From assembly GCA_963934755.1 (NCBI GenBank), contig CAWVZX010000001.1:1-36421 (forward strand): a DNA stretch of 36,421 nucleotides, read 5' to 3'. The number at the start of each line of letters is the position of its first letter. Position 1 is the stretch's first letter. The position numbers and the translations under genes are program-made. Below, piece after piece: positions 14,376 to 36,421 of the stretch. The notes beneath the pieces are model-generated. The model was not told the DNA's origin and did not search any database. It saw nothing but the letters and a program-made list of their open reading frames with translations. The stretch comes from an uncultured Arcobacteraceae bacterium. Its GTDB lineage: Bacteria; Campylobacterota; Campylobacteria; Campylobacterales; Arcobacteraceae.

Positions 14376-17300
14376 ATGGATAAGTTTAAAGAACTATATC
14401 AATACCTCGTTGATAACGAGATGACTGACTTATCTGAAGAAGAGTTCAAGGTTGAATATGCTCAAGGAACAGATAAAAACTCTACATTATTTACCTACCT
14501 TCAAGACAATGAATTAACTGATTTAGACCAACAGGCATTTAATTCTAAATACTTTCCACAACAAACACAAGTAGATGTTGATGTTGTCGCTGATGAAGTG
14601 ACAGATGTTAAAAGTGGTCAAGAGGTTGATTCATCTACAATGGTAGAAGAAACTGTTGCTTATGATCCCAGAGAGCAAGGCATGGATGATAAAATATCCT
14701 ATAACAACAATGCTACTGTCTTTGAAAAATCACTAGCATATGTAACTCCAGATTTAATTGACAGAGAAGAAGAAGAGGTGGTTAACAGAATGAATTATCA
14801 TTTTGGAGACTATGGTTTTACCTTTGAAGAAGGGGGAGGTATAATGTCTGGGATGGATGGAATGAGTGTTCGTGCAGAAAATGGCCAAACCATAAATGTG
14901 AATCTCGATCCAGTATTTGGTGATTTATTAGGTGGTGAAACTCAAGAATCTAACAAGTTACAAGATTTTTTAAAAAAGAATAAAAAAACTAATCCAGAGT
15001 TAGAGGCTTTTAATGCTGAGAATAATCGTAAAAGAAAAAAATACTTTAGCAAGAAAGCAGTTGATGAGGATTTAGATGATTTGAAGACCAAAGCTACTTC
15101 TATAAATAAACGAGCACAAGTTTATCAAACCGAAAAGACTAAGCATGAAGAGGCTATGGATGGCTTACTTATGGTGCCTCCACAAGAAAGAGGTGCTGAT
15201 TGGCAGTTAAAATACCAACAACAATTAGGAGTGGGTAAAAGACTAAACGAACTGAAACAAACAGTATCTAACGAACTTAAGTCATATAGAACTATAGAAA
15301 AACAAGTTCATTCTGCTGTAGGAAACTACATGGAAATGAAATTAAATGATGGAAGTGGTCCTGGAACATTTTTAAAAGGCTTCTATAATAGTGTGGTTGG
15401 TAGAGGTGTTTCACAAATTTTTGCATATGTGGCTGATTTAGGAATTGATGGATTGTATAAAGTTGGTCAAGCAATAGATGAAGATTTTTCTTTACGAAGC
15501 CTGTCTGGGGTAACAGATGAAGAGAAAAAAGAAAGGTATATAACTATTGCAAAAGATTTAGGTTATGATGTGCCTAGTGATGTAATGGATAGTGATGAGT
15601 CTTATCAAAACTGGTTGAACAGTCTTAGTGAAGACGATGAGATGGCACTAGATGGTGATACTGATTTATTTACTTCACAACTAAATAAAGAAGGAAGAAA
15701 GGCGTTAAAAGATTCTGGAAAAGAATTAAAAAATATTAATGGTAAGTTACAATTATATGATCCTAAAGGTGGAATTTTAGGTAAAGGTGGGTATGAGGAT
15801 GTTCCTGCAGATTATTTAGACAAAACCAAAAGAGACAAACTAGACAGATTAGTTTTAGATGCAGAAGTAAAATCGGCAAAAAAACCTACTAAAGAGTTTA
15901 TTAAAAAGAACTGGAATCAATTATTGTCTTTTGATGATGTATCGGATGAAAAAATTGCTGAAATGCGTGATGACAGTATTATAGCCGAGGGGTTGTTAGG
16001 TCTAGGTGAGTCATTACCAGCTATAGGGTTGTCACTTGCTTCAAGAGGTAAAATAAAAGCTACTGGACAATTTGCCACACTAAGAAATTTAGGGGGGAGA
16101 ATACTGGGGTTAGACTCAAAAGGTGGTGTTGCACAAGTGTTAGCCTTTTCAGCTTTACAAGCTGAGGCAATGCAAGAGGAAATGGATGCTGATGAAGATT
16201 TTAAATATGTGACTGAAGGAGAAAGAAAAGCAATTTTAGGTCCTACTGCATTAACTGTAGCGGTTCTAGAAAGGTATGGTTTAAGAAATATAGTGGGTAA
16301 TAAAACTATAATGACTGGATTAATGAGTCAAGTTACTAAAGTATTGCCTCAAGGAGCATCTGCCGCACTATATAAATCCACATTAGAAAAAATAGTTAAA
16401 AGTAATATTGCTAAAGGTTTATACACTAATAAAGCAGTTAAGTTTTCTACATCTGTAGCAAAAGCAGCATTAGCTGAAGCAGAAACAGGAGGCTTACAAC
16501 AGATAGCAGAAATGGGCTATAAGGACATATGGAATGACATGAACGAGAAAGAGATGTTCGATCAACCAAAAATGTGGTCCAAAGAGTTTTGGCAAGAAGC
16601 TAAACATGCTGCAATGGCAGAGGCAGTAGGTGGATTTGTTATGGGTATACCTGGAGGTATAGTTAATGCATATAAGACTGGCGAAACTGATAATATATCT
16701 GATGCAACATTAGAATTGTTTGATGCTATAAGAGGAGATAATATTACAATGAAAGCTTACAAAGAACAGTTATCTGTTCAAGTATCTGAAGGTAAAAAAA
16801 CTCAGAAAGAAGCAGATGAAGAATTATTGCAATTTGAAACTTTATCTGGTGCAGCAAACACTATACCAGTGGATTTAGATATAACTGCTAGAAAAAAAGC
16901 ATTAGGATTAATTTTTGAAAGACAAGGTCTTGAAGCAGAAATGGAAGGGATGGATAAGGACTTAGGTTCTTACAAGAAAAAAGAAGCTAGAGTTCAAGAA
17001 ATAAAAAATGAATTATCACAAATTGGAAGTGAACAAGCTGATGATTCTGCATCGCTAGAAAAGGAAAGTGAAAATATTCCTATATTTGTTTCTGAAGAGA
17101 AGGCAAAAGAAGAGCTTGTCAAAGAAGGCATAGCTAATCCTACTCAAGAACAAATTAAAGAAAAACAAGATGCCCTTCAAAAGTCAGAAGCAGAGAGCTT
17201 GGATGTACCAAAATCTACCGAAAGTGGCCCAACAGTGGGAAAAGGAAACAAAGGGACCACTACCAACCAGGGCACCCAAGAAAACAAAGATGCGTCTCAA

Positions 17301-20300
17301 ACGAAATCCGAAGAGAAAGTAACTAAAGAAGAGCAAGAAGATATTGATGCCTTTTTTGGTGAAGAGGTTGGGTTAGAGGTTGAGTCTAGTTCGGACAACT
17401 TATCTATAAACCGTCAACAAAAAGATGGCAGTAAGGTTAAAGACACTAAACTAAGCACACAAATTATAAAAAGAGCTAAGTTAGCTGCAAAAGCTATAAA
17501 AAAAATTGCTCCGAATGTAAAAATGGTGCTACACCAAACAACAGAAGAGTTTGAAAAGTTTGCACCTAAAGGAAATGGATATTATAATCCAAACACTAAA
17601 GTAATTCATATAAACTTAGCAACTGCAAAAAATAAAACTGTAGCTCATGAGGTATTTCATGCAGTGTTTTTAGAAAAAATTGCCGGCGGTGACAAAGGTG
17701 CAATAGCAGCAGCCGACAGATTAATTAAATCTGTAAGAAAAAGTTTGCCTAATGATTCTATGTTAGCAAAACGAATGGATGCATTTGCTAATAAATATAA
17801 AGACAGTGCGTTCCAAAATGAGGAAAGAGTAGCTGAGTTGTTTTCTTTAATGGCTACAGAGTACAAATCTTTAACTAAACCTGCTAAAAACAGAGTAGTT
17901 GAGTTTATTAAAAGTGTAGCAAAAAAATTAGGTATAAAAATTTCTAATGATTTTACAAGTTCTGATGAAGCTGTTATTGATTTTTTAAATACATTTTCTA
18001 AAAAAGTACAGTCTGGTGAAGAAGTAGTTGAGTCTGACTTAACTGCATTAGATGAAATAAATGAGCAACTAGCTCAAGATGGTACTGCACCAATTGGTAA
18101 TCCAACTGAAATAAATAAACCTCAAGAGGGGAGGCAGTCTAAAATAAAGTTTGATGATAGTTATCCTTTATCCTTAGTTACTCCAGAAAATAAAATAGAT
18201 ATAAATAGTCTTATTGATAATATTTCTAACAAAAAACAAAAAGTTTGGTTTTGGGTTGCAGATCAGTTAGGGCTAGGTAATGTAGATGGAATTGAAATGG
18301 ATGCTGGACCAAGTTTTTCTTTACAACCAGAAAACTTGAAGAAAAAAACTATATGGGCAAGTGGTTTAGATAATTCAAAATTAAGCAAAAACATAGATGC
18401 AGCCGATTATATTTTTATTATAAGTGGATCACCTGAAACTAGTAAATTGTTTAATAAAAAAGTATTTGATAGATATATTAAAGATTTAGGTGATTATGCA
18501 AAATTTAAAAAAGATGCATTAGCAACTAATCCAACAAAAGCAATAAGAGATAGTCTTGAAGAATTTGATAGTTGGTCGGCAATGAGAAAAAGTCCAAAAA
18601 GAAAAAACTTCTTAATAGCTCTAAACGAACAAAGCAGAAAGCCTAACACTAAATTTCATGCATTAATTAATAATTTAGGAGGATTTGTAAGTGCTCAATC
18701 TTTAAGAGATGGGTTTTACAGAGATAATAATTTTGCTCAAAATGATATAATGATGGTGTTAAAGCCAACAGGATTAGGAGGTAAATCAAATCATTCTACT
18801 TATTCTACAGACATCTTAGGGGATGTTGTGGGAGTTCCAGATGCAAAAATAAATGCTAGAGAAATAGTTCCAGAAAATATAAAAAAGAAAATAGAGGGAA
18901 CAAATATTTCAGTGCAAACTTCTAGTATAGCTCCTTATGGCGGTTCTACTCAAACAGCAGTAAAAACCATCACTAAACCTCAAGAGGGAAGGCAACAAAG
19001 AGATACACTCGCTGAGATAAATGTGTTTTATAATATGAATAACAGTGGCTTTTTTAGTCCACAAGTCGATACATATAGATTACAAAAAGAATTAGATGCT
19101 TTAAACCAAGGTTATAAACTAAGACAGGCACCATTCAATCAGTATGGTCAAGGTGGTGGATACTCTATATATGACTCTAGAGGTAAAAGAGTAAGACCGC
19201 CGAAAGACAGTGAGTATAGACAGGGTAGGCAACAGAAGATGGATAACGAAAACGATCTTCTAAAAATTATTATTATAGGTAGAGAACAAGCTGGATTTAG
19301 AGATGCAGCTATTAAAGATTATTTAAAAAGAAGAAAAAAAGAAGTAAATGGCAAGTTAGTACCAGCCTATTCAGCATCAGAAATAAACAATGCTATGGAT
19401 GTGGTGCAAGGATTTGAAGGTGAGTCATACTTATTTACTGCATTTCCAAAAAGCTTTAACAACATGGAAGGTGGCTTTTTAGCTGGTCTTAAATTGTTGA
19501 AAAAGGTAAATACATATTATAAAAGACTTATAAAAGCTAACAACAAAAAGAAATCTGTAGCGGTTGATGGAACTCCATTAACTGAAGAACAAATTAGACA
19601 AAAAGTTATAGACTACTTTACTGGCTTACAAGAGTATCAAAATGAAGGTGCTCAAGGTAATAGATTAACTGCTCAGCAAATGGCTATGGAAAAAGACCTG
19701 TTAGAGTTGTTACTTCCTGATCCATTAAAAGCTAACCCACAAAGAATAAGAGCTATAAACAAAAGAATTAAAGAAATAAAGTTTGATGAAAAAAATATTA
19801 AAGCTGTACAAAGAGCATTAAGAAACTACATTAGATCAGTTCTTCCAAGAGATTTGTATACTAAAAGTGAAATAGTTTCATTAATAGATAAAGTAAACAG
19901 AATAAATAAAACTAATTTTGAGTCAGTTAAAGATGAAGTATTTAAAGTCGTTACATCTAAAACTAATAAATCTTTACAAGAATCTATTTTTAATATTCTG
20001 AATAGAAAATTTACCACTATACAGTCAGGAAGACTTAAAGGTGTTAGTATTGATAATGAAACTAGAAAGAAAATAGAAAGAATTAATTCTATGATTGTCA
20101 ATCCAAAATCCACTGCCGATGAGATAATGGAAGCTAATGAACAACTTTTAAAAGAATATAATTCTATTGCTAAAGAAGAAGTTTCGGTAAACAAAGAAAC
20201 TAGAACTCAAGCAAAAAGTAGTCTGGATGAAGATGCTTTAAGTAGGTTAGCAGAAATTACTATTGCTATGCAAATAAACAATTCATTTTTAGCAGAAATG

Positions 20301-22940
20301 AATGATCCTAATAAAACTACTTTACTATCTGAGGTCTTGAATTCTTTAAATCAAATGCAAGAGACTGGTAGAGCAAACTTAGAGTATGTTCTTCTTAATG
20401 ACGCAATTACCTACAGAGAAAACGAAAGGAAAGTTTTTAAAGAAATGACTGGTATAGATTTAGATGCAAAACAATCTTTAATAGATCAAGGGATACCTGA
20501 AAATGAAATAACAGAGGGTATGATTAATGTAGAGTTTAACAAACTTAAGCAAGATGTTTCTGTTGATGCTAAAAGAAAGGGTGGATTAAAACCTCCTACA
20601 GTTAGAAAAAGATTTCAAAACCTTATTAATAAAATGCTTAACAGTATTGATCGTAATGTATTTGCATCAGCTGAAGATTTAACAGGTTTAATAGATAGAA
20701 TTGTGACTCAACCAGGAGAATTATTTGAAGGTGATACACAGACTATTGTACAAAAAGCAGTAAGAGAAGCTACTAGAATGTACAAGGCTAGAATGATGGG
20801 ACAGAAAGATATTTTTGAAAATAAAATGACTGAGTTGTTTGGCAAAAAATGGTTAAAAAACAATGCTAAAAACTCTCAACAGACTGAGACTATAATAATT
20901 AGTCAAGCTAAAAATGACCAACTAGTAAAAGAAAAGGAAAAGGTCATGGCTGATAAATCTTTAACCAGTGGAGAACGAACTGCAAAGGTTAAAAAATTAG
21001 ATGAAGCTATAGATACTAATACTATTTATATAAGTCAAAATCAGCTGATGTATTACTACTCACAAATGCAAGATCCTTCGCTTCAAGAAAGTTTTATAAA
21101 TACTTTTGCGCCTACTGGTAATTATAAAAATGAATTTGAGTCTAGAATAAGAAAAGAATTAGAGGATAAGCTAGATCCTAGATTGAAAGAATTTTCTAGT
21201 TGGATGATAAATGATTACTACCCGTCTTTATATAATCATTATAATGAAACATATAAACAGATTTACAGAACAGACATGCCTTGGAATCAGTTTTATGCAG
21301 GTAGGGTTTATAGAAAAAATGCCAATGACTCCGAAGGTTTAGATTTATTAGCAGACAGCAATAATTCTTGGATGACAAATGTGGGTGCTGCAAGTTCTAA
21401 AGTTAGATTACAAAACTCTAATCCAATATCAATGGTAGACGGTATGGATGCTCTTATTAACTACACAAAAGACATGGAGTACTTTGCTGCTTATGCAGTT
21501 CCAGTAAGAAATATTAATAAAATATTTACATCTCCTGCTATTAAAGAAACTATTCAAGAAAAGTATGGCAAAGATGTTTGGACATATATTAATGATGCTA
21601 TAGAAAAAATCGCAAACAAAGGTGTGCAGAATCAAGGGGAAACCAAAGTTATAAATTTATTTAATAATACATTTTTATTATCACGCCTTGGATTAAACCC
21701 TACACTAACTTTAAAACAGTTGACATCATTTGTTACTTATGGAAATGAAATTGGTTATGGAAACTGGTTAAAAAATAGTGCAATAAGTTTAGCAAACATA
21801 AAAACTAACTTTAGAGAAGTCATGGACAACTCTGTTATTTTACAAGACAGATATGGTAAACCAATAACTAGAGCTGTAGAAAATTATTCTGACAGTAAGT
21901 TTGAGGAAATGAATGCAAGAGATTTTTCTAATTTTGGATTAGGTAAACAGAACTTAGATAAAATTACAAAAGTTTTAATGTTTACAACTATGACTGGAGA
22001 TAAGGGCGCCATCTTAATCGGTGGAATACCTAACTATGTGTATTATAAAAACCAGTATAAAAAGAAAAACCCTAATGCATCTAAACAAGAAGTAATTGAA
22101 TATGCAATAAGAAAGTTTGAACAAGATACATTAAGGACTCAACAGTCATATGATTTACAGGATAAAGATTATTATCAAGGTAAAGGTGCTATGACTCGAG
22201 CATTTAACATGTTCTTGACAACACCAAAACAATATTTTAGAAAAGAAATTATTGCAATGAGAAATATATATAGACTCGCTAAAAGTGGTGGTGCATCTGG
22301 TAGAGGAACAATATTTCAAAACTTACGAACATTAGGTGTGTATCATGTGGTTATGCCAGTATTTTTTCAATGGGTATCCTCAGGGTTTCCTGGATTAGCA
22401 AGAGGTTGGGATGATGAAGACACTGATGATATTGCTTTTGCCGCTATGCTAGGTAATTTAAATGCATTGTTTATTTATGGTAAAATAGCTGAAACAATAG
22501 TAGATGCTGCTGCGGGTAAACCTTGGGTTGATAAACCTTCTACAATACCAGTGTTAGGGCAAACTGCATTGCTAGGCGATTTATATGTAAGAATGAAAAA
22601 TGCTAAATCTGCTGCAAAACAACAAGAGGCTTTCAATAAACTAATGTCTGAACTAGTAGCAACAACTGGTATACCAGCTCCACAGATAAAAAGGTTTTAT
22701 GAAAATTGGAGTCAATTAGATAAAAGTAAAAGTTTTGGTGACTTTGTTTTAAAACTATTTAACTTCTCTCAATATGCTCAAAAGAAAAAGAAAAAAGGTG
22801 GAGGATTAACCAAAGCAGAAAAGAAAAAATATTTCCCTGATTTATTTGACACAGATGATTTTGAAGGAACAAGTGAGGCAAATGAACTTAAAAAAGAACA
22901 GAAAAGAATGAGACAAGAACTTTTAAATGATATGTTTTAA
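14376..22940 (+). CDS. Giant internal virion/ejection polyvalent protein with zincin metallopeptidase motif (2854 aa)
   Basis: Cys-free, with Ala/Gly hydrophobic helices. AHEVFH at 17643-17660 with downstream EERVAE; repeated GRQ(S/Q)(K/R) linkers; hydrophobic C-terminal helices. Confidence 0.75.
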   Translation: MDKFKELYQYLVDNEMTDLSEEEFKVEYAQGTDKNSTLFTYLQDNELTDLDQQAFNSKYFPQQTQVDVDVVADEVTDVKSGQEVDSSTMVEETVAYDPREQGMDDKISYNNNATVFEKSLAYVTPDLIDREEEEVVNRMNYHFGDYGFTFEEGGGIMSGMDGMSVRAENGQTINVNLDPVFGDLLGGETQESNKLQDFLKKNKKTNPELEAFNAENNRKRKKYFSKKAVDEDLDDLKTKATSINKRAQVYQTEKTKHEEAMDGLLMVPPQERGADWQLKYQQQLGVGKRLNELKQTVSNELKSYRTIEKQVHSAVGNYMEMKLNDGSGPGTFLKGFYNSVVGRGVSQIFAYVADLGIDGLYKVGQAIDEDFSLRSLSGVTDEEKKERYITIAKDLGYDVPSDVMDSDESYQNWLNSLSEDDEMALDGDTDLFTSQLNKEGRKALKDSGKELKNINGKLQLYDPKGGILGKGGYEDVPADYLDKTKRDKLDRLVLDAEVKSAKKPTKEFIKKNWNQLLSFDDVSDEKIAEMRDDSIIAEGLLGLGESLPAIGLSLASRGKIKATGQFATLRNLGGRILGLDSKGGVAQVLAFSALQAEAMQEEMDADEDFKYVTEGERKAILGPTALTVAVLERYGLRNIVGNKTIMTGLMSQVTKVLPQGASAALYKSTLEKIVKSNIAKGLYTNKAVKFSTSVAKAALAEAETGGLQQIAEMGYKDIWNDMNEKEMFDQPKMWSKEFWQEAKHAAMAEAVGGFVMGIPGGIVNAYKTGETDNISDATLELFDAIRGDNITMKAYKEQLSVQVSEGKKTQKEADEELLQFETLSGAANTIPVDLDITARKKALGLIFERQGLEAEMEGMDKDLGSYKKKEARVQEIKNELSQIGSEQADDSASLEKESENIPIFVSEEKAKEELVKEGIANPTQEQIKEKQDALQKSEAESLDVPKSTESGPTVGKGNKGTTTNQGTQENKDASQTKSEEKVTKEEQEDIDAFFGEEVGLEVESSSDNLSINRQQKDGSKVKDTKLSTQIIKRAKLAAKAIKKIAPNVKMVLHQTTEEFEKFAPKGNGYYNPNTKVIHINLATAKNKTVAHEVFHAVFLEKIAGGDKGAIAAADRLIKSVRKSLPNDSMLAKRMDAFANKYKDSAFQNEERVAELFSLMATEYKSLTKPAKNRVVEFIKSVAKKLGIKISNDFTSSDEAVIDFLNTFSKKVQSGEEVVESDLTALDEINEQLAQDGTAPIGNPTEINKPQEGRQSKIKFDDSYPLSLVTPENKIDINSLIDNISNKKQKVWFWVADQLGLGNVDGIEMDAGPSFSLQPENLKKKTIWASGLDNSKLSKNIDAADYIFIISGSPETSKLFNKKVFDRYIKDLGDYAKFKKDALATNPTKAIRDSLEEFDSWSAMRKSPKRKNFLIALNEQSRKPNTKFHALINNLGGFVSAQSLRDGFYRDNNFAQNDIMMVLKPTGLGGKSNHSTYSTDILGDVVGVPDAKINAREIVPENIKKKIEGTNISVQTSSIAPYGGSTQTAVKTITKPQEGRQQRDTLAEINVFYNMNNSGFFSPQVDTYRLQKELDALNQGYKLRQAPFNQYGQGGGYSIYDSRGKRVRPPKDSEYRQGRQQKMDNENDLLKIIIIGREQAGFRDAAIKDYLKRRKKEVNGKLVPAYSASEINNAMDVVQGFEGESYLFTAFPKSFNNMEGGFLAGLKLLKKVNTYYKRLIKANNKKKSVAVDGTPLTEEQIRQKVIDYFTGLQEYQNEGAQGNRLTAQQMAMEKDLLELLLPDPLKANPQRIRAINKRIKEIKFDEKNIKAVQRALRNYIRSVLPRDLYTKSEIVSLIDKVNRINKTNFESVKDEVFKVVTSKTNKSLQESIFNILNRKFTTIQSGRLKGVSIDNETRKKIERINSMIVNPKSTADEIMEANEQLLKEYNSIAKEEVSVNKETRTQAKSSLDEDALSRLAEITIAMQINNSFLAEMNDPNKTTLLSEVLNSLNQMQETGRANLEYVLLNDAITYRENERKVFKEMTGIDLDAKQSLIDQGIPENEITEGMINVEFNKLKQDVSVDAKRKGGLKPPTVRKRFQNLINKMLNSIDRNVFASAEDLTGLIDRIVTQPGELFEGDTQTIVQKAVREATRMYKARMMGQKDIFENKMTELFGKKWLKNNAKNSQQTETIIISQAKNDQLVKEKEKVMADKSLTSGERTAKVKKLDEAIDTNTIYISQNQLMYYYSQMQDPSLQESFINTFAPTGNYKNEFESRIRKELEDKLDPRLKEFSSWMINDYYPSLYNHYNETYKQIYRTDMPWNQFYAGRVYRKNANDSEGLDLLADSNNSWMTNVGAASSKVRLQNSNPISMVDGMDALINYTKDMEYFAAYAVPVRNINKIFTSPAIKETIQEKYGKDVWTYINDAIEKIANKGVQNQGETKVINLFNNTFLLSRLGLNPTLTLKQLTSFVTYGNEIGYGNWLKNSAISLANIKTNFREVMDNSVILQDRYGKPITRAVENYSDSKFEEMNARDFSNFGLGKQNLDKITKVLMFTTMTGDKGAILIGGIPNYVYYKNQYKKKNPNASKQEVIEYAIRKFEQDTLRTQQSYDLQDKDYYQGKGAMTRAFNMFLTTPKQYFRKEIIAMRNIYRLAKSGGASGRGTIFQNLRTLGVYHVVMPVFFQWVSSGFPGLARGWDDEDTDDIAFAAMLGNLNALFIYGKIAETIVDAAAGKPWVDKPSTIPVLGQTALLGDLYVRMKNAKSAAKQQEAFNKLMSELVATTGIPAPQIKRFYENWSQLDKSKSFGDFVLKLFNFSQYAQKKKKKGGGLTKAEKKKYFPDLFDTDDFEGTSEANELKKEQKRMRQELLNDMF
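18116..18994 (+). repeat. 21-nt direct repeat pair (20/21 identical) inside the giant gene
   Basis: TAAACCTCAAGAGGGGAGGCA at 18116-18136 and TAAACCTCAAGAGGGAAGGCA at 18974-18994; degenerate third copy at ~19218-19238. Confidence 0.85.
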
Positions 22941-24095: not shown

Positions 24096-25328
24096 TTACA
24101 AATTTAATAAATCCTTTTTGAAGTGATTAAGGGTATAATCTTTCTTCTTTATAACACTTTTATAGATATCATCCTCAATACCACCTTCAGAAAATATCCA
24201 ATAGATTTTATTATATAACCTATCTTTAGTAGTCATCCTGTCTCTTGATTGCCAGTAGCTAGTAGCACTGAAATCTATATTATAATATATTAATGCTTGT
24301 GCATTTTTTAAACTTATACCTTCTCTCCCTGAAACTATTTGTAATGCAATACTTTTATTAGTAGTGTTAAACTCTTCTAGTTCTGTACACAAACCTTTAC
24401 GATATACTTTTTTTAAAGCATTTAACTCTTCTTTAAATTTATAAAATATTGCAATCTTTTTACTTCTGAATTGTTTTCTGATAAATTCTGCCTTAGATAA
24501 ATCTATAACCATAGACTCACCACTCTCAAATTTAACTGTACCAGAATATAGTTGATGTAATTTTGACATAAGTTTTACTGCTGTATCTGCCAATATTACA
24601 TTTTCCACACCTTCTACAACTCTATCTTTCGTAAGTTTTCTGACTAATGATTTTATAACACTGGTAAGTGGAACATGAAGCACCTCTTCATCTGTATGAA
24701 CTTTGAACCCAGCTTCTTTCTGAGTGTATGCAATTGTATATGGTTTCATATCATCTAATATTGATTGTAATCCATGACTCCAGTCATTTATAGTCATGGC
24801 TCCTATTTTTTTTTGCTTTACCTGTACATATTGTTTAGCAAATTTGTAAAAACTTTTATATTGATTAAAAGGATTATTTCTAATAGCATAAACTTGGTGG
24901 TACATTTGTGAGTAGGATTCAGGTGTTGGTGTACCAGATAAAAGAATCACATATGGATTATGTTTTAATATAAATTCTTTAACAGTCTTTGCTCTAAGAC
25001 TTGGTTTAGGAAATGCACCCATTGAATGTGCTTCATCACAAACTATCATGTCCCACTTTATCTGATGAGATACTTTATGAAGACTTTCGTAATTTATTAT
25101 AGTAATGTTATAAGAAGGATTTAGCATATCATAATCACCCTGGATACTTGATATAGCTTTTTTCTTTGTGATAAATAAAAGGTTATGAACTGGAAGTGCA
25201 AGACTCATAGCCAAACTTGTCAAGGTTTTTCCAGTCCTAACCTCCATAGCAAGATACAAAAAACCTTGTTTTTTTAAAACCTCTGTACCTTTTTCTACTA
25301 TGTCAGCTTGGTATTGTCTTAATTTCAT
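24096..25328 (-). CDS. SF2 (SNF2-like) helicase (410 aa)
   Basis: LRQYQ Q-motif, TGKT, INYESL, DEAH, LSGTP, REGISL, QSRDR. Confidence 0.9.
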   Translation of the reverse strand: MKLRQYQADIVEKGTEVLKKQGFLYLAMEVRTGKTLTSLAMSLALPVHNLLFITKKKAISSIQGDYDMLNPSYNITIINYESLHKVSHQIKWDMIVCDEAHSMGAFPKPSLRAKTVKEFILKHNPYVILLSGTPTPESYSQMYHQVYAIRNNPFNQYKSFYKFAKQYVQVKQKKIGAMTINDWSHGLQSILDDMKPYTIAYTQKEAGFKVHTDEEVLHVPLTSVIKSLVRKLTKDRVVEGVENVILADTAVKLMSKLHQLYSGTVKFESGESMVIDLSKAEFIRKQFRSKKIAIFYKFKEELNALKKVYRKGLCTELEEFNTTNKSIALQIVSGREGISLKNAQALIYYNIDFSATSYWQSRDRMTTKDRLYNKIYWIFSEGGIEDDIYKSVIKKKDYTLNHFKKDLLNL

Positions 25329-26515
25329 ATTATGTCTTTACATTTATTTACGACTGCCTCAACTACATTAACCGTAACAGCATTCCCACACATTTTGTAT
25401 CTTTGTGTGTTACTCACTTTTTTAGTTACCCCATTATATATACCATACTCAGTCCAGTTATCAGGAAATCCTTGTAGTCTCTCACACTCTATAGGTGTTA
25501 GTCTTCTTATAGACTCGTTTTCTATAATACCATTAGGTTCCGAGGACCTTAAGGTGAATGCATCTTCACCATCAGATTTGACTGCATTACCGAATTTATC
25601 TGAATTACCTAGTTGTGTCGGCACAATTATACTATCTAGTGGACTTGTTGTTACTGCATTAGCCACATCATCTTTTCTTGTTTCCAAATCTTTACCATTA
25701 TCTCGTGTTCTTAATGCACCAGATAAAACTAATGGTGGCATAGTGCTTATATCTTTTTCACTGTGTCTTCTTGCAGACAAACATGGACTATCACCTTCAG
25801 CTCTTATTCTTAACCCTTCATCATTTCTGTAGTCTGCAGCTCTTACTATCTTAGGATCTTTATAATCTCTAGACAACAAAGCTGGTGCAGTATTTTTAAA
25901 ACCAAACTCTCTTTCAGAAAAGTTACTTACTTGGGCTATTCCTTTTTGTACTCCTTGAGTCTTGCTTGAGCTGATTTCGATAGGAAAAACTCCTTTCCAA
26001 TCTCTTGGGGTGTTTGCAGAATATCCGACAAGGTAGATTCTCTCTCTGTTTTGGGGTAGAAACCACGATGTATTACACAATTGCCATTCAAGTCTATAAC
26101 CCCCAATGTTGGTAAAGGCTTGGAGGATTGCCGCAAAATCTCTGCCATCGTTTGAGCTGAATGTTCCTTTAACATTTTCCCAGATAAAAATTCCTGGTCG
26201 GCATTCATCAATGAGTCTAATCGCTTCAAGGATAAGGCTCGATCTATCTCCTCCCATCCCTTTACGATTTCCAGCGACACTAAAGTCTTGGCAAGGGCTT
26301 CCAAAGGTGATAGCGTCAATTTTTGGTAACTGTGTTCCTCGAACATCTGTAACTGATCCGACATACTTACTATTTTTAAAATTATATTTATATACTGCAA
26401 TGGCATGAGCATCAACTTCTGAAAAGAAAGTTTTAACTTTATAACCCGCTTTTTCAAAACCTTTGTGAAATCCACCAATTCCTGAAAAAAGGTCTAAAAC
26501 AGTGATTTTCTTCAT
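25325..26515 (-). CDS. dcm: DNA (cytosine-5) methyltransferase (396 aa)
   Basis: Motifs I DLFSGIGG, IV GSPCQDFS, VI ENV, VIII QNRERIY, IX RRLTPIECERLQGFP, X GNAV. Confidence 0.95.
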   Translation of the reverse strand: MKKITVLDLFSGIGGFHKGFEKAGYKVKTFFSEVDAHAIAVYKYNFKNSKYVGSVTDVRGTQLPKIDAITFGSPCQDFSVAGNRKGMGGDRSSLILEAIRLIDECRPGIFIWENVKGTFSSNDGRDFAAILQAFTNIGGYRLEWQLCNTSWFLPQNRERIYLVGYSANTPRDWKGVFPIEISSSKTQGVQKGIAQVSNFSEREFGFKNTAPALLSRDYKDPKIVRAADYRNDEGLRIRAEGDSPCLSARRHSEKDISTMPPLVLSGALRTRDNGKDLETRKDDVANAVTTSPLDSIIVPTQLGNSDKFGNAVKSDGEDAFTLRSSEPNGIIENESIRRLTPIECERLQGFPDNWTEYGIYNGVTKKVSNTQRYKMCGNAVTVNVVEAVVNKCKDII

Positions 26516-31475: not shown

Positions 31476-31764
31476 TTTTGGTGGCTTGGTCTATAAAATT
31501 TTTATAATCGGAATCTTGTTCAATCATTTTCTTGGCTTGATTGTAGCCATACATAATATTGGAATGAGTTATGTTGTATCCATTTTCTTGTAAAAACCTT
31601 TGGATAAAACTAACTCTAATAGGTCTTTCTTTGCAGAGATAATATAATATCTGCCTTGCTTCGACAATGTCTTGTCTCTTTGTTTTGCTAAACATTTCAT
31701 CTAGTGTTAGATGGAATTGAGTGGCCACAGCTTGACTATATTTATCAAATATTTCTTTTTTCAT
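31459..31764 (-). CDS. Stand-alone DnaA C-terminal (domain IV) HTH-like protein (101 aa)
   Basis: VA..F.LT..EM.SK.KR..IV.ARQI.YYL.....HS.I.YG matches the Bac_DnaA_C pattern. Confidence 0.75.
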   Translation of the reverse strand: MKKEIFDKYSQAVATQFHLTLDEMFSKTKRQDIVEARQILYYLCKERPIRVSFIQRFLQENGYNITHSNIMYGYNQAKKMIEQDSDYKNFIDQATKNADTD

Positions 31765-31780
31765 GTAATTTTTTTAGAAA

Positions 31781-31856
31781 ATTAAAACCCACCCCATGTA
31801 TAACCGAGTTAAAAACCTGTCATACCAAGTTTATAATGTGGCGAGGTGGGAATTAA
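31781..31856 (-). ncRNA. Structured leader RNA/attenuator-like element
   Basis: CCCACCUCG/UGGGGUGGG outer stem enclosing a GUAUGAC/GUUAUAC stem, followed by UUUUAAUUUU. Confidence 0.5.
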
Positions 31857-31882
31857 CCTAGAATTAACTATCTAACTAACTT

Positions 31883-31948
31883 TTATATAAATAAAATTTC
31901 ATCATTGTCATCTTCATCTTCTGGATCGGGAGTATAATACTTTATCAT
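31883..31948 (-). CDS. 21-aa acidic peptide MIKYYTPDPEDEDDNDEILFI
   Basis: ATG with an A-rich leader 19 nt downstream of a TAGTTTTG promoter element; not in the ORF track. Confidence 0.55.
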   Translation of the reverse strand: MIKYYTPDPEDEDDNDEILFI

Positions 31949-31967
31949 TTATTGTCTTATATTTCCT

Positions 31968-31975
31968 CAAAACTA
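31968..31975 (-). promoter_or_regulatory. Bacteroidota -7 promoter element for the replication operon
   Basis: Plus-strand CAAAACTA reads TAGTTTTG on the minus strand; intergenic. Confidence 0.55.
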
Positions 31976-31984
31976 AACTTTTAT

Positions 31985-32185
31985 TTATTCAATACCTAAT
32001 TTTTTATTCCTTTTATTTATGGCTTTAGTGACTACATCCATGCCATGCTTAAACTTACCTTCATTAATTTTTTCTAACCATTTAGTTAATGCAATCCATT
32101 TAACCTGGAGGACATCTAATTTTTCTTTTGTTTCTTCTAATTCCCACTTGCACTCGGCAAGTACATCTAAACTTGTTTTTCTCAT
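31985..32185 (-). CDS. Hypothetical coiled-coil protein (66 aa)
   Basis: ORF with an A-rich leader. Confidence 0.65.
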   Translation of the reverse strand: MRKTSLDVLAECKWELEETKEKLDVLQVKWIALTKWLEKINEGKFKHGMDVVTKAINKRNKKLGIE

Positions 32186-32213
32186 TTTTTTTAATTTAAG
32201 TTAATATTTTTTT

Positions 32214-32501
32214 TTATTTTTTTCTTAGTACTTCTTTTCTAAACTTATAATAATCTTTCTTCCCATTTTTTAAACAATATTCATAATCTTTTTTCGCTAA
32301 TTTAAGTGCCTTAATTAAATCATTTACCATAAATATATTTAGTTGAGCATTTATATATTTAGGATTTCTTGGTTCAAGATGTTCCCAATCCTCTGCAATG
32401 TGCAAATTAAAAATAACTGCTTCAAATTCATTTCCTCCTACTTCAACATCAATCTCTATATCGTATGCTTCTGCTAATGGCACTTTATATGTTATTCCCA
32501 T
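32214..32501 (-). CDS. Hypothetical protein (95 aa)
   Basis: Preceded by an (AAATT)n leader. Confidence 0.7.
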   Translation of the reverse strand: MGITYKVPLAEAYDIEIDVEVGGNEFEAVIFNLHIAEDWEHLEPRNPKYINAQLNIFMVNDLIKALKLAKKDYEYCLKNGKKDYYKFRKEVLRKK

Positions 32502-32528
32502 TTTAATTTAATTTAATTTAATTTATAA

Positions 32529-32693
32529 TTATTTAATGCCACCATTTTTTATTTGATTTATGATGTCATTTATTAACTGATGATTTACCGACCATTTCTT
32601 TGCTTCGGCTTTGTCAAAAGTTTGCTCACACCTTGCCTTCATCATTTTAGACAAGATGTGTAACAACTCTAGCATGATATTTTTAGGACTCAT
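32529..32693 (-). CDS. Hypothetical protein (54 aa, MSPKNIMLELL...GGIK)
   Basis: Fills the gap exactly and overlaps the upstream stop; not in the ORF track. Confidence 0.6.
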   Translation of the reverse strand: MSPKNIMLELLHILSKMMKARCEQTFDKAEAKKWSVNHQLINDIINQIKNGGIK

Positions 32694-33012
32694 CCTCTTC
32701 TATTATACCCATTGCACATACACTGATTGAGTAGATACTATCATCTAACTCATCTACCATCAAATCATCACACCAATCTTTCCAAACTGCATCAGTGACA
32801 TCTTCTCTGTGCAGTCTGAACATTTTAGATTTCTTATAAAACATTAAATCCTTTGGATAATATTTCTTTTCTATCACAAGATAAGAGTTCTTAAATTTCT
32901 CTAGTTTTTGTTCAACTTTCTCTAATTTTTCTTCAGCTTGTTCTCTTGCTTCGGTTTCTTTTTTCAAAATCATTCTAAGAAATTGAATTTCAGTAAATTC
33001 TGTTTGTTCCAT
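32683..33012 (-). CDS. Hypothetical protein with N-terminal coiled coil (109 aa)
   Basis: Preceded by an (AAATT)n leader. Confidence 0.7.
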   Translation of the reverse strand: MEQTEFTEIQFLRMILKKETEAREQAEEKLEKVEQKLEKFKNSYLVIEKKYYPKDLMFYKKSKMFRLHREDVTDAVWKDWCDDLMVDELDDSIYSISVCAMGIIEEDES

Positions 33013-33034
33013 AATTTATTTAATTTAATTTAAG

Positions 33035-33673
33035 TTATACATTATTTGTTGATTCTACAATCTCTGCACAAAGTTCAGATGGAATTTTACTTCTATCAAA
33101 ATAGCTTCCTCGACCTTGAGTTCCACTTTGACTTCCTCTTGGTGCAGATACATGACAAGAGTCTCCATTCTTACACATAGGTTTAGGAGTCCAATAAGTA
33201 TTGTTGGTCCAGATGTCTGTTGGCTTCATCCTATCATCACCATACTGACAATAGGTTAAAGTGTGTCGGACATGGTCAACATCATTCCAATGAGAAGACT
33301 TTCTCATCTTGCCTCTTGGATTCTCTATGTACCAAATCATGTTAGGATTTTTCTTAAGGAGTATCTCTATTATCTTCATAGTTCTCATTAAGATGTTTAT
33401 TCCTTTGACTGCATTATTTGTCTTTGGCATAAACTCATGTCCTTTCTCCCAATGATGACCTATAGATGCTACAGAAAATGACTCACATGGTGGTGATGCC
33501 CATAACATATCTACTCTGTCAAAGTTGATTGAACTAACCTGGAAATCCATAATATCACAAACATAATTTGTTTTTGGGAAATCCACACAATCAGAAGAGA
33601 AGACTTTGTGCCCTCTCTTCTCTGCCTCTTTTCCTATGCTTCGGCTTCCACTAAAAAGTTCTACCACATTCAT
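33035..33673 (-). CDS. Short C5 cytosine methyltransferase-like protein (212 aa)
   Basis: ELFSGS (motif I variant), WASPPCESFS (motif IV), IENP (motif VI); no large TRD. Confidence 0.8.
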   Translation of the reverse strand: MNVVELFSGSRSIGKEAEKRGHKVFSSDCVDFPKTNYVCDIMDFQVSSINFDRVDMLWASPPCESFSVASIGHHWEKGHEFMPKTNNAVKGINILMRTMKIIEILLKKNPNMIWYIENPRGKMRKSSHWNDVDHVRHTLTYCQYGDDRMKPTDIWTNNTYWTPKPMCKNGDSCHVSAPRGSQSGTQGRGSYFDRSKIPSELCAEIVESTNNV

Positions 33674-34011
33674 TGTTTTCTTTTTAAGTGTTCAAACATT
33701 AACCACTCATCAAGTCTGTCCTCAATGTAGTGTTGTAAATCAAAACTTAAGTCAGTTAGATAGTCTTCATAGTACTTAGTGTGGTCAACTTCATTACATA
33801 GACTATACCAATCTTTAGGTAAATCAGTCTTGTAATCATCAATGATTTCTTCTTTGATTCTTTCTACCACCACAAGAGTTTGTCTTCTTACTAGTGGCAT
33901 ACTAAGGTGGAGGTAATGCTCTTCCATAGCTTGTAAGAAATCATCTTTGTCGATAACCTCTTTGTCATAAGCATCAAGATTAAACTTTAATGCTTCCATA
34001 AATTTGCTCAT
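33670..34011 (-). CDS. Hypothetical acidic protein (113 aa, MSKFMEAL...)
   Basis: The track start TTG 34035 lies inside the ribozyme stem; ATG 34011 has the typical AATAATT leader. Confidence 0.65.
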   Translation of the reverse strand: MSKFMEALKFNLDAYDKEVIDKDDFLQAMEEHYLHLSMPLVRRQTLVVVERIKEEIIDDYKTDLPKDWYSLCNEVDHTKYYEDYLTDLSFDLQHYIEDRLDEWLMFEHLKRKQ

Positions 34012-34022
34012 AATTATTTGTA

Positions 34023-34102
34023 TTAAGTTAAACAATGACTCCCAGATTAATGGGAGTTTCGTAGGTGTTTAAACCTTTACTCTTCAGATTGTTCTTTCTT
34101 AA
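34023..34102 (-). ncRNA. Hammerhead ribozyme, type I
   Basis: UUAAG-aaa-GAACAAU CUGAAGA [GUA-aa-GGU uuaaac ACC-UAC] GAAA [CUCCCA uuaauc UGGGAG] UC^ AUUGUUU-aa-CUUAA. Complete catalytic core and GUC cleavage triplet; predicted cut between 34037 and 34036. Confidence 0.93.
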
Positions 34103-34691
34103 ATTTACCTACTGCTTTATTAATCATTTTAGAAATGCCTTGTGCCTTTTCTTGTAAGTCTAAGATTTCATCTTGAGTCAAACTATTCTTAAAGTCTGTG
34201 TATTCTATTTCTTTAGACTCTCTTTGTCTTCTTAACAACTCTCCCTCAATACATTCTTTTGGAAATAACTCTTCCATTATTTTCTTCTCATCTCCGAACA
34301 TCCATTTAGTACCATTTTTAAGGAGGTCTTGTTTCTTCATATCCCCTAGCCAAGTATCCTTAAGTAATGTTTTGTAGGTTGGAATACTAATGTCTTTCCA
34401 TCCTTTTTTAGCTTTACCATCTTCATCCTCACACTTGTCATACAATCCACTCTTGGCATAGTCTCCTACAATAGCAATACTATCCCCTTGCCACCTACCA
34501 ATAATAGTAGATGGAATAGGTTCATATTTTTTATTGTACTCTATGTGTCCTTCTGCCAATAGCAAACCAAGTCCTTGCATGACTCCTTTACCACTTGCAA
34601 CAATCTCCCACAACTTTAGTCCATTGCCAAAGGTGTGAGGATTTATAAACTCTTTTTTTGTTTTGTTTATTACTTTAAAATATTGTCCCAT
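34077..34691 (-). CDS. Conserved phage hypothetical protein (204 aa)
   Basis: MGQY....N..KKE.I.P.....GLKL.E...GRW.GD.I..VGDY, a recurring phage early-gene pattern. Confidence 0.7.
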   Translation of the reverse strand: MGQYFKVINKTKKEFINPHTFGNGLKLWEIVASGKGVMQGLGLLLAEGHIEYNKKYEPIPSTIIGRWQGDSIAIVGDYAKSGLYDKCEDEDGKAKKGWKDISIPTYKTLLKDTWLGDMKKQDLLKNGTKWMFGDEKKIMEELFPKECIEGELLRRQRESKEIEYTDFKNSLTQDEILDLQEKAQGISKMINKAVGKFKKEQSEE

Positions 34692-34693
34692 AA

Positions 34694-34813
34694 TTATTGT
34701 TTTTGTTCTTTTATTAGTTTATTAATGTCTTGTACTATTTTGAATATATTGTCTCCAACATCTGCACCTTCAATAATCCATTCTATTTTTTCTATAAGTT
34801 CTTTTTTGTTCAT
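34694..34813 (-). CDS. Hypothetical protein (39 aa, MNKKELIEKIEW...)
   Basis: Fills the gap with TAA-TT-ATG spacing on both sides; not in the ORF track. Confidence 0.6.
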   Translation of the reverse strand: MNKKELIEKIEWIIEGADVGDNIFKIVQDINKLIKEQKQ

Positions 34814-34815
34814 AA

Positions 34816-35094
34816 TTATTTGTTTTTAGATAGGTTAGTAATAATGTGTGCCATTGTATTTAAATGGTTTTCTAGTGGAGAATTTTTGTGTTCATTTCCA
34901 TTCTCATCCAAGTGGATAAATGGGTTGTGTTTTGTAGGATCTTCCACAGCTGGTGGTGTAATTTCTCTGTCTACCACTTCCATAATTGTCTCATACAACA
35001 TTTCTGTTGTGACCTTGTCTAGAGGACAAGTTTCTAAGATAGCTTTTATCTCTGATAACTTGCTAATAGCAATTTGGTCTTTGTTTTTGTTCAT
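34816..35094 (-). CDS. Hypothetical protein (92 aa)
   Basis: ORF with an AU-rich leader. Confidence 0.65.
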   Translation of the reverse strand: MNKNKDQIAISKLSEIKAILETCPLDKVTTEMLYETIMEVVDREITPPAVEDPTKHNPFIHLDENGNEHKNSPLENHLNTMAHIITNLSKNK

Positions 35095-35127
35095 AGTTTA
35101 TTAAATTTAATTATCTGCATTATTGCA

Positions 35128-35175
35128 TTGAGATTAGGAGAGGAATCGAACCTCTCCCATGTTCCAAACTAATCT
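35128..35175 (-). ncRNA. tRNA-like minihelix (acceptor-like stem + T arm, no D or anticodon arms)
   Basis: AGAUUAG-uuuggaacaugg-GAGAGG-UUCGAUU-CCUCUC-CUAAUCU-CAA. Confidence 0.7.
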
Positions 35176-35807
35176 ATAGTACCACTTGTCATTCCTCTAT
35201 TCATATAGTATTCTTTCTCCTTACTTATCTCTTCATCTGATTGTTGAGAATCTATAGTGAATAACACATCTTCTTGGATGTAGTTTTCTCTCCACTGATT
35301 TAAGTCCAAGTGCATCATTGCACCACCATCATTACCCTCATCATCAGTCTGAGGAACTAAACAAGTACCATCATCTAACCACATTGCAAGTGGAGATTTG
35401 TACCATCCAAAGTCTGAACATTCTTTTGGATTTAAGTGTCTTACATTAACAATCTTTCTACCAATTAGATGTGTGAATCTTGTTCTATACTTATTGTGAG
35501 GTAGGTTTTCCACATACTCTTGAGCATTCTTTTTTAACTCTCTAAGCATTGCATTAACTTGATTTGGTTCTCTTGAGTATTGTCTACCATAAAGTCCTAA
35601 CTTATAGGTGTTCTTAGCTTCTTTAATAAGTAGTCTAGCAGTTACCCATTCTCCAATAGTGTTATTGTAGTACCCTTGCTTACTGATGAATTTCTTTGGA
35701 TTCTTTCCTTGAGCAATCCATACTTGTTCTCTAATGTCTTTTAGAGTAAAAGGTTTGTTGTCGAACTTATCTAATAAGTTGACAAAGATTTGTTGTTTGA
35801 TTTTCAT
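35169..35807 (-). CDS. Hypothetical two-domain protein (212 aa)
   Basis: Basic, wHTH-like N-terminal half; C-terminal half L.GRKIV.VR.L...E....GW...P....LDDG....P..DDEGNDGGA. Confidence 0.7.
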   Translation of the reverse strand: MKIKQQIFVNLLDKFDNKPFTLKDIREQVWIAQGKNPKKFISKQGYYNNTIGEWVTARLLIKEAKNTYKLGLYGRQYSREPNQVNAMLRELKKNAQEYVENLPHNKYRTRFTHLIGRKIVNVRHLNPKECSDFGWYKSPLAMWLDDGTCLVPQTDDEGNDGGAMMHLDLNQWRENYIQEDVLFTIDSQQSDEEISKEKEYYMNRGMTSGTID

Positions 35808-35809
35808 GA

Positions 35810-35932
35810 TTAAAATATTGTGTTAAGAGTTATAAATGTAATTCCTATAATATCAAAGAATAGTAATGTGTAGACTATACAAGCTATTAAAGGGTTAGTG
35901 TCTTTCCAAAGTGTAATTATAAAGTGTTTCAT
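35810..35932 (-). CDS. Small membrane peptide (40 aa, MKHFIITLWKDTNPLIACIVYTLLFFDIIGITFITLNTIF)
   Basis: Fills the gap with 2-nt spacers; single long hydrophobic helix; not in the ORF track. Confidence 0.6.
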   Translation of the reverse strand: MKHFIITLWKDTNPLIACIVYTLLFFDIIGITFITLNTIF

Positions 35933-35934
35933 AG

Positions 35935-36315
35935 TTAAGATATATTAGTTAATGATTTTAGTGATTTTTTTAAGTGTTTGTAAGTGTATTGAGCAGATTG
36001 AAAGTGAAGATAACTCTCACCTAAATCTACTAACTCTTCAAGCAATTCTCTTGCTTGTTGTAGCTTTGCTTTAGCTACCTTTGGAGTCATTCTTAATTCA
36101 ATTTCTTCTTCCTTACCACTATCATATCTTACATATAATTTTGGACTAAGAAGATTTAAATCATAAGATTTTTGTTCCAAGTATTCTTTGTCTTCTGATG
36201 ACTCATGGAACTTATCTCCATTTGTAGCTAACTTACCATTTTCATAGTGAGGATAGTATCCCTCCAAGAAGTAGCAGTCTACTACTAGGTTGTCTTCATA
36301 TGGGTAATCTTTCAT
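35935..36315 (-). CDS. Hypothetical protein (126 aa)
   Basis: ORF in the early operon. Confidence 0.7.
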   Translation of the reverse strand: MKDYPYEDNLVVDCYFLEGYYPHYENGKLATNGDKFHESSEDKEYLEQKSYDLNLLSPKLYVRYDSGKEEEIELRMTPKVAKAKLQQARELLEELVDLGESYLHFQSAQYTYKHLKKSLKSLTNIS

Positions 36316-36317
36316 AG

Positions 36318-36404
36318 TTATAGGTTTAAAGGGTTAATGTTAATGTTAAGTGCTTCACTCATTGAATGCACATTCTCGATAATAATAGTTAATTCTAATT
36401 CCAT
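36318..36404 (-). CDS. Small ORF (28 aa, MELELTIIIENVHSMSEALNININPLNL)
   Basis: Preceded by an AATTAAATTAAAT leader; TAA-CT-ATG coupling to the next gene. Confidence 0.45.
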   Translation of the reverse strand: MELELTIIIENVHSMSEALNININPLNL

Positions 36405-36421
36405 TGTATTTAATTTAATTA

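What the first reader, a model, noticed from the sequence alone, without database searches (positions are those of the whole stretch)
34023..34102. Intact hammerhead ribozyme whose catalytic core is also the last codons of an early gene
Seen: on the - strand all core elements are present. These are CUGAAGA, stem II, GAAA, a 7-bp stem III, a GUC triplet, and a stem I of 7+5 bp interrupted by an internal loop. The bases GAA CAA UCU GAA GAG UAA encode ...EQSEE* of the 204-aa ORF and also form stem I and the core. Established: type I hammerheads self-cleave after NUH, leaving a 5'-OH, and use stem I/loop II tertiary contacts. Inference: cleavage at 34037/34036 splits the early polycistron 25 nt ahead of the next ATG (34011). 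A ribosome terminating on the core would unfold it, so cleavage could be coupled to translation of the upstream gene.
Basis: partly seen in the sequence, partly recalled or inferred. Interest (0 to 1): 0.8.

Follow-up and report, generated by a model that had tools for sequence, protein, structure and literature searches.

The report
Phage hammerhead ribozyme inside gene end
A hammerhead RNA motif, predicted to cut itself, shares its catalytic core with the last codons of a phage gene, and relatives keep both readings; it likely splits a long message, and such overlap is common in phage hammerheads, so control by translation remains untested.

Summary
A complete type I hammerhead lies on the minus strand (core 34087-34081, predicted cut 34037/34036); 0 of 400 shuffles match it. 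Rfam misses it. The overlap is conserved: 18 of 26 complete related genes end S-[DE]-E-stop on the same core. Stems I and III covary, and codon third positions vary only where hammerheads tolerate change (U4/C4, all four bases at N7).

The translation-switch idea is not supported as special. The same ribozyme family sits outside coding sequence in 9 other loci. In my baseline, 9 of 42 unrelated phage type I hammerheads also have an ORF stopping inside the core or stem II, and the 40-nt stop-to-cut spacing here is typical.

Best reading: a likely constitutive mRNA-processing site that gives the next gene a 25-nt A-rich leader, overlapped through genome compaction; ribosomes would at most modulate it. 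No cleavage or RNA end was shown. Phage hammerheads between genes have been known since 2011, and this scan noted stop-codon overlap before on other DNA.

The parts
34077..34691 (-). Upstream gene, 204 aa, unknown function; last codons GAA CAA UCU GAA GAG UAA lie on stem I 5', the core and the start of stem II
   Evidence: ORF list; 55 homologs, 24 ending QS[DE]E; no PHROG or Pfam family; model pLDDT 75.5 with a C-terminal helix 173-203; fold matches at E<=0.001 only to two uncultured-phage proteins
34098..34102 (-). Distal stem I, 5' strand UUAAG (window and L045 only)
   Evidence: fold; searches show other letters in the other relatives
34088..34094 (-). Proximal stem I, 5' strand (7 bp); also codons E, Q and the first base of S
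   Evidence: paired in 25 of 25 distinct family members at each of 7 positions; covariation
34081..34087 (-). Catalytic core C3-A9, CUGAAGA; U4 and N7 fall on codon third positions
   Evidence: U4C in 5 of 16 overlapping members and N7 = A, U, C or G
34061..34080 (-). Stem II with a 2-nt AA bulge and loop UUNAAC; holds the UAA stop at 34079-34077
   Evidence: its 6 pairs never vary in alignment A2, partly fixed by the search pattern
34057..34060 (-). GAAA (G12-A15.1)
   Evidence: invariant in alignment A2
34038..34057 (-). Stem III hairpin, 7 bp; would cap the 3' end of the upstream product
   Evidence: three pairs with changes on both sides
34036..34037 (-). Predicted cleavage site after GUC (C17 = 34037)
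   Evidence: GUC or GUA in 25 of 25 members; cleavage itself not shown
34023..34036 (-). Stem I 3' strands (AUUGUUU, AA, CUUAA); the A at position 1.8 is invariant
   Evidence: A in 25 of 25
34012..34036 (-). 25-nt leader of the downstream gene after the cut; no Shine-Dalgarno; A at -3, -6, -12, -13
   Evidence: leader 24-32 nt in 24 of 25 members; A-12 in 25 of 25; Flavobacterium initiation signals in PMC6847099 (passages)
33670..34011 (-). Downstream gene, 113 aa from the ATG at 34011, unknown function; replaced by other genes in several relatives

Best explanation
This is a type I hammerhead ribozyme whose core overlaps the last codons of a phage gene, and it likely acts as a built-in, largely constitutive mRNA-processing site that is predicted to cut 40 nt after the stop and 25 nt before the next start. 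The upstream product would keep a complete gene ending in the stem III hairpin and a 2',3'-cyclic phosphate. The downstream product would start with a 5'-OH and a short A-rich leader of the Bacteroidota type. The overlap likely arose by compaction: in a type I hammerhead the core lies upstream of the cut, so the usual 20-60 nt stop-to-cut spacing puts the stop on or next to the core. This frame is tolerated because codon third positions fall on U4, N7 and G10.1 and a stop comes before the cut. The S-[DE]-E tail is then dictated by the RNA. Passing ribosomes would unfold the motif briefly and could tune the rate, but the arrangement does not need them. Shown: motif, overlap, conservation, covariation, spacing. 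Inferred: cleavage, products, purpose.
For: Motif far beyond chance. Stems I and III paired in 25 of 25 distinct members; 94.4% of cells paired against 87.2% in shuffles, and 6 pairs change on both sides. Synonymous difference is 0.086 in the last 6 codons against 0.305 in codons -25 to -7 and 0.334 in the first 60. The last codon is GAG in 16 of 16 (genome share 31%), and Ser is only TCT or TCC. CCGA is described as a cleavage-competent natural variant (PMC9608096, passage). The same stem II family occurs without core overlap in 9 type I loci and one type III locus of 16 hits, next to different genes, and 8 of those 9 keep a 25-32-nt leader (L139 = L194). L059, a 47%-identical homolog, has a core and stem II starting 5 nt after its stop. 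Baseline: 26 of 42 phage type I hammerheads have an ORF stop within -7 to +20 nt of the ribozyme's 5' edge; 9 of 42 have it inside the core or stem II (null mean 1.26, max 6 of 300); 0 of 54 have their longest upstream ORF reading through the cut. Stop-to-cut medians are 49 nt (type I, n=31) and 37 nt (type III, n=8); here it is 40. Prophage hammerheads flanking genes cleave in vitro and in E. coli (PMC3088659 section 6).
Against: No cleavage assay, and no RNA end seen. No related gene has lost the overlap through an earlier stop (18 of 18 complete close loci), although CAA to UAA in stem I would keep a U-G pair. The window and L045 replaced about 38 codons upstream yet stayed in frame. Both could mean the overlap or the peptide tail is selected. 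Type I versus type III abutment differs sharply (26 of 42 against 0 of 12, Fisher p=1e-4), which coupling to termination would also predict. U4C occurs only in overlapping members (5 of 16 against 0 of 9). Bacteroidota is not among the phyla listed as having runaway transcription (PMC13323073, passage), so ribosomes probably do trail the polymerase. Stem I is weak in long-context folding (probability 0.12).
Confidence: 0.65

Rival explanations
1. Translation-gated cleavage. Ribosomes terminating on the core keep the ribozyme unfolded, so the message is cut mainly when the upstream gene is poorly translated. The overlap is kept by selection for this control.
For: The stop lies in stem II in 18 of 18 complete close loci despite 49-91% protein identity and in-frame indels. 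Blocking the terminating-ribosome footprint removes stems I and II in the model, by construction. Type I hammerheads hug stop codons and type III do not.
Against: The same ribozyme family sits without core overlap in 9 loci. The overlap is common and the spacing ordinary. The stop is UAA, an efficient stop, with no visible stalling signal (own knowledge). Ribosome passage takes about a second, so refolding between ribosomes should allow cutting (own knowledge, not computed).
Confidence: 0.17
2. Translation-assisted folding or classical translational coupling. Ribosomes on the upstream gene hide sequence that competes with the weak AU-rich stem I and so promote cleavage, or they open stem I and expose the A-rich start region of the next gene.
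For: Model probability of stem I in the window rises from 0.12 to 0.78 when sequence more than 21 nt upstream of the core is blocked; it reaches at least 0.69 in 7 of 16 overlapping members and 1 of 9 free ones. The distal helix covers -16 to -12 of the next start, where adenines matter in Flavobacterium.
Against: In 9 of 16 overlapping members blocking leaves stem I at 0.24 or less. The model ignores tertiary contacts. The distal helix is not conserved.
Confidence: 0.1
3. The motif is a slow or inactive remnant, or stem III with its U-containing tail works as a weak terminator or stability hairpin without cleavage.
For: No Rfam match. Stem III is the only terminator-like hit in 31500-36421. 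One 151-nt contig from an RNA library crosses the cut by 28 nt.
Against: The core is intact in all members, with change only at tolerated positions, and stem I covaries. The terminator count is at chance level (1 found, 1.5 expected). L200 and L201 lack the U run.
Confidence: 0.08

Closest known systems
Hammerhead ribozymes flanking single genes or short gene blocks in prophages and phages (Perreault et al. 2011, PMC3088659; sections 6 and 8 and passages read)
   Same: Consensus core and three stems; position at a gene junction in a phage; a short distance from cut to next start (that paper's HHphage motif lies 13 nt upstream of a start codon); proposed role in processing long transcripts
   Different: Only one hammerhead in this 36-kb contig; the core is read as sense codons and the stop lies in stem II. 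The main text has no occurrence of 'stop codon'; its supplements were not read.
Type I hammerhead with loop II / stem I internal-loop contacts (Schistosoma Sm-alpha type; review PMC6155905, passages)
   Same: Open stem I, a proximal helix followed by unpaired adenines, a stem II loop placed to meet them
   Different: Stem II carries a 2-nt AA bulge and a fixed UUNAAC loop; no Rfam hammerhead model reaches E<=10; tertiary contacts not tested; single copy in a phage, not a satellite repeat
Type I hammerheads in 5' UTRs of fungal RNA viruses that enable translation initiation (PMC13725137; abstract and outline only)
   Same: Self-cleavage just upstream of a gene, proposed to shape initiation
   Different: Eukaryotic cap-independent initiation in RNA-virus UTRs; here a DNA phage with a bacterial leader and overlap with an upstream gene
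glmS ribozyme (PMC6765202, passages)
   Same: Bacterial mRNA self-cleavage upstream of a gene
   Different: glmS is ligand-gated and of another fold; no gate is shown here

Membership tests
Hammerhead ribozyme, type I | Core CUGANGA ... GAAA with NUH at the cut | tested here: met
   CUGAAGA, GAAA, GUC; conserved in 25 distinct members with only U4C, N7 and GUC/GUA changes
Hammerhead ribozyme, type I | Three helices around the core, stem I open, stems II and III closed | tested here: met
   Fold; 25 of 25 paired at 14 positions (the cut site was picked by best pairing); covariation above shuffles and slid controls
Hammerhead ribozyme, type I | Tertiary contact between loop II and stem I | not testable with these tools
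   Only suggestive: A at position 1.8 in 25 of 25 and a near-fixed loop II
Hammerhead ribozyme, type I | Site-specific self-cleavage giving 5'-OH and 2',3'-cyclic phosphate | not testable with these tools
   Only assembled contigs were available for the 8 runs laid; no molecule ends listed
Rfam hammerhead families (release 15) | Score at or above a family's gathering threshold | tested here: not met
   0 matches at gathering and 0 at E<=10; not filed under any Rfam accession
Phage gene-junction hammerheads (Perreault et al. 2011) | Located at a gene boundary in a phage or prophage, same sense as the genes | tested here: met
   ORF map and PHROG hits to virion proteins, primase/helicase, exonucleases and methylases
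Phage gene-junction hammerheads (Perreault et al. 2011) | Several hammerheads clustered around genes | tested here: not met
   One descriptor hit in the window for types I and III with U4C allowed; a relative's contig has two 1.4 kb apart (L138, L139)
Translation-gated RNA switch | Cleavage depends on ribosome occupancy of the upstream gene | not testable with these tools
   Folding models are ambiguous; comparative evidence does not require it
Intrinsic terminator | GC-rich hairpin followed by a conserved U run | tested here: inconclusive
   Weak hit at chance level; U run absent in L200 and L201

The most novel reading that the evidence does not exclude
Phage type I hammerheads are placed on upstream stop codons so that terminating ribosomes gate self-cleavage. 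This family is the extreme case: a ribozyme core that is also protein code, kept in frame across a whole gene family, with U4C variants tuning the rate. It would be a natural translation-sensing ribozyme switch and would give the many orphan phage hammerheads a function.
Probability: 0.2. Interest if true: 0.78.

Novelty: new member of a known kind. Interest (0 to 1): 0.38.

Why it matters
The roles of bacterial and phage self-cleaving ribozymes are described as largely elusive (PMC6765202, passages). This family offers a clean natural comparison: one ribozyme type found both under a gene's last codons and free between genes, with natural core variants. It also shows a catalytic core and a protein tail sharing bases, with wobble positions on the tolerant core positions, and shows that Rfam misses this bulged-stem-II family. 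If ribosomes gate the cut, phage mRNA processing would be linked to translation. If not, it is one more processing site of a kind known since 2011.

Tried and rejected
Rfam: no match.

RNA evidence: 21 runs were listed, all as contigs; 8 were laid. One RNA contig stops at 34023, 13 nt short of the cut; another crosses the cut by 28 nt; two contigs of a related phage run through their own copy of the motif. None of this shows or excludes cleavage.

An anti-ribozyme helix between upstream codons and the cut site was considered by eye and dropped, because the upstream partner is absent in the window. A loop II pseudoknot with the stem I 3' strand was dropped because loop changes in L002 and L046 are not matched on the other side.

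A tree of the gene ends gave 4 changes for U4C (at least 2 forced) but is poorly resolved, with 8 of 12 inner branches open, and U4C is not clustered (229 of 500 shuffles as low).

The pattern scan of genome contigs gave 37 hits; only 2 had a core and only L360 looks like a family member. Most hits of the looser scans were chance matches. The upstream protein has no PHROG, Pfam or named-phage match; the protein atlas did not answer. Promoter scans gave chance-level counts. Only 1 of the 9 baseline ORFs ending in a core has a PHROG match, so most are unverified as genes.

The primary paper on the U4C variant and a 2015 comparative-genomics paper could not be read.

Full report
Setting. The window is contig C1 of bin G000. 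It is a phage: PHROG hits mark virion proteins on the plus strand and primase/helicase, helicase, exonucleases and two DNA methylases on the minus strand. The host is likely a member of the Bacteroidota. The primase/helicase hits Flavobacterium phages at 39.9% over 37% of its length, and 0 of 45 phage ORFs have a Shine-Dalgarno-like word against 37% of 666 ORFs in the rest of the bin. The bin itself is therefore probably not the host. The motif lies among small unknown genes upstream of the DNA-metabolism block; 'early' is inferred from this layout only.

Observation. A descriptor finds one type I hammerhead in the window; 4 of 400 shuffles give any hit and 0 of 400 one as strong. Stem II has a 2-nt bulge. 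Rfam gives nothing, even at E<=10. The core consensus I used is recalled; the review PMC6155905 (passages) confirms the general architecture.

Conservation of the overlap. Of 55 protein hits, the 24 best end in QS[DE]E, one being the window's own partial product; the other 31 do not. In DNA I examined 29 related loci. Three run off their contig. Of the 26 complete ones, 18 have the same overlap (L042 came from a motif search, the other 17 from protein searches). One, L059, has a core and stem II starting 5 nt after its stop, with the contig ending before stem I can be checked. Seven distant ones (38-49% identity) show no core in the 110 nt after the stop. The downstream gene differs among relatives, so the ribozyme travels with the upstream gene.

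Which message constrains the bases. In 16 genes anchored at the stop (L045 and the window left out for their replaced segment, L052 as a duplicate), synonymous difference is 0.086 in the last 6 codons, 0.305 in codons -25 to -7 and 0.334 in the first 60. The last codon is GAG in 16 of 16, though GAG is 31% of Glu codons in the window; that G is G10.1. Ser is TCT (11) or TCC (5), never TCA, TCG or AGY. TCC gives the CCGA core, reported not to affect self-cleavage in a viroid (PMC9608096, passage). The penultimate codon takes A, U, C or G at N7. These are related sequences, not independent events, and transition bias also favours TCC. Still, the RNA rather than the peptide explains the pattern.

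Structure. Among 25 distinct members, 7 positions of stem I and 7 of stem III pair in 25 of 25 (cut site chosen by best pairing). On an independent MAFFT alignment of 21 of these (four long stem III members left out; L206 is misaligned), 94.4% of cells pair against 87.2% in shuffles, 6 pairs change on both sides, and slid controls reach 30-51%. Stem II does not vary and says nothing on its own.

Is the overlap needed? A scan for the stem II sequence gave 16 loci: 5 overlapped by this gene family, 9 type I without core overlap (three with the stop 5-12 nt before C3), 1 type III and 1 without a core. The leader after the cut is 24-32 nt in 24 of 25 members, with A at -12 in 25, at -3 in 23, at -6 in 21 and at -13 in 19. 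These are the positions linked to efficient initiation in Flavobacterium (PMC6847099, passages). The constant feature is the cut-to-start geometry, not the overlap.

Is the overlap unusual? From two capped scans (244 loci, 250 matches), 61 distinct motifs passed the descriptor; 54 had at least 250 nt upstream. Of 42 type I, 9 have an ORF of 50 or more codons stopping in the core or stem II (7 on the UGA of CUGA; 2, L144 and L317, in the same frame as here) against a null mean of 1.26. 26 have the stop within -7 to +20 nt of the ribozyme's 5' edge. For type III the count is 0 of 12. In none does the longest upstream ORF read through the cut. Measured to the cut instead, medians are 49 nt (type I, n=31) and 37 nt (type III, n=8; p=0.045), and this site has 40. 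A roughly fixed stop-to-cut spacing plus type I geometry explains most of the pattern, though it does not exclude selection. Only 1 of the 9 core-ending ORFs has a PHROG match. After computing this baseline I found that the scan had noted the same habit in at least 17 genomes; those notes are unchecked and are not counted as support.

Mechanism. Inferred: the transcript folds once the 3' strand of stem I is made and cuts after C17. The upstream message keeps its stop and ends in the stem III hairpin; the downstream message starts with a 5'-OH, 25 nt before AUG. A terminating ribosome would cover the 5' half of the motif. From my own knowledge of termination times this is brief at a UAA stop, so I expect modulation, not a switch. 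Against that, no close relative has dropped the overlap, the window and L045 kept frame through a replacement of about 38 codons, and Bacteroidota is not among the phyla listed as runaway (PMC13323073, passage). Folding models cut both ways: stem I probability in the window is 0.12 in long context and 0.78 when upstream sequence is blocked, but only 7 of 16 overlapping members behave so. RNA-library contigs were uninformative.

What is known. Perreault et al. 2011 (PMC3088659; sections 6 and 8 and passages) describe hammerheads flanking genes in prophages, show cleavage in vitro and in E. coli, and propose processing of long transcripts. PMC6765202 (passages) says the purpose is still open. 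I found no paper describing a phage hammerhead core read as codons or overlapping a stop (searches, seen as listings; 'stop codon' has 0 occurrences in the two papers above). The library lacks most subscription papers, and I did not read the 2011 supplements, whose alignments and gene maps could show such cases.

Verdict. A real, well-conserved type I hammerhead of a known kind, with a neat and solid dual-coding feature. The overlap is common among phage type I hammerheads, and translation control is untested. Interest 0.38.

Noticed in passing
L070-L193 and L210-L329 (baseline set): Phage type I hammerheads begin at the upstream stop (26 of 42 within -7 to +20 nt of their 5' edge) while type III do not (0 of 12); stop-to-cut distances of the two types overlap.
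   Followed up: partly
L194-L209, L360: A hammerhead family with a fixed bulged stem II occurs beside many different genes, in type I and type III (L204) form, some with long stem III inserts; the window's copy has no Rfam match.
   Followed up: partly
window 34100-34239, minus strand: The window and L045 carry an in-frame replacement of about 38 extra codons just before the ribozyme, predicted as a long helix; it also creates the distal stem I helix.
   Followed up: partly
L059:1268-1335: A 47%-identical homolog has a different hammerhead core 5 nt after its stop; related protein P0027 ends ISDAGNFL, possibly reading into such a motif.
   Followed up: no
window 34077-34691; P0029-P0055: The upstream protein belongs to a wider family with a conserved MGQYF...HxxGxGxKL start; the window's protein has no Pfam or PHROG model and five wider members tested have no Pfam model.
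   Followed up: partly
window 1-36421 versus the rest of G000: The phage contig has no Shine-Dalgarno-like starts (0 of 45) while the rest of the bin has 37%; it is probably binned with a non-host genome.
   Followed up: partly
window 25325-26515 and 33035-33673, minus strand: Two DNA methyltransferase genes; the second lies two genes downstream of the cut.
   Followed up: no
window 3484-8307 and 14376-22940, plus strand: Very large proteins of 1607 and 2854 aa; the second has no PHROG or Pfam match.
   Followed up: no
L004, L005, L023, L027: Other hammerhead-like cores in unrelated viral contigs appeared in the first pattern scan.
   Followed up: no
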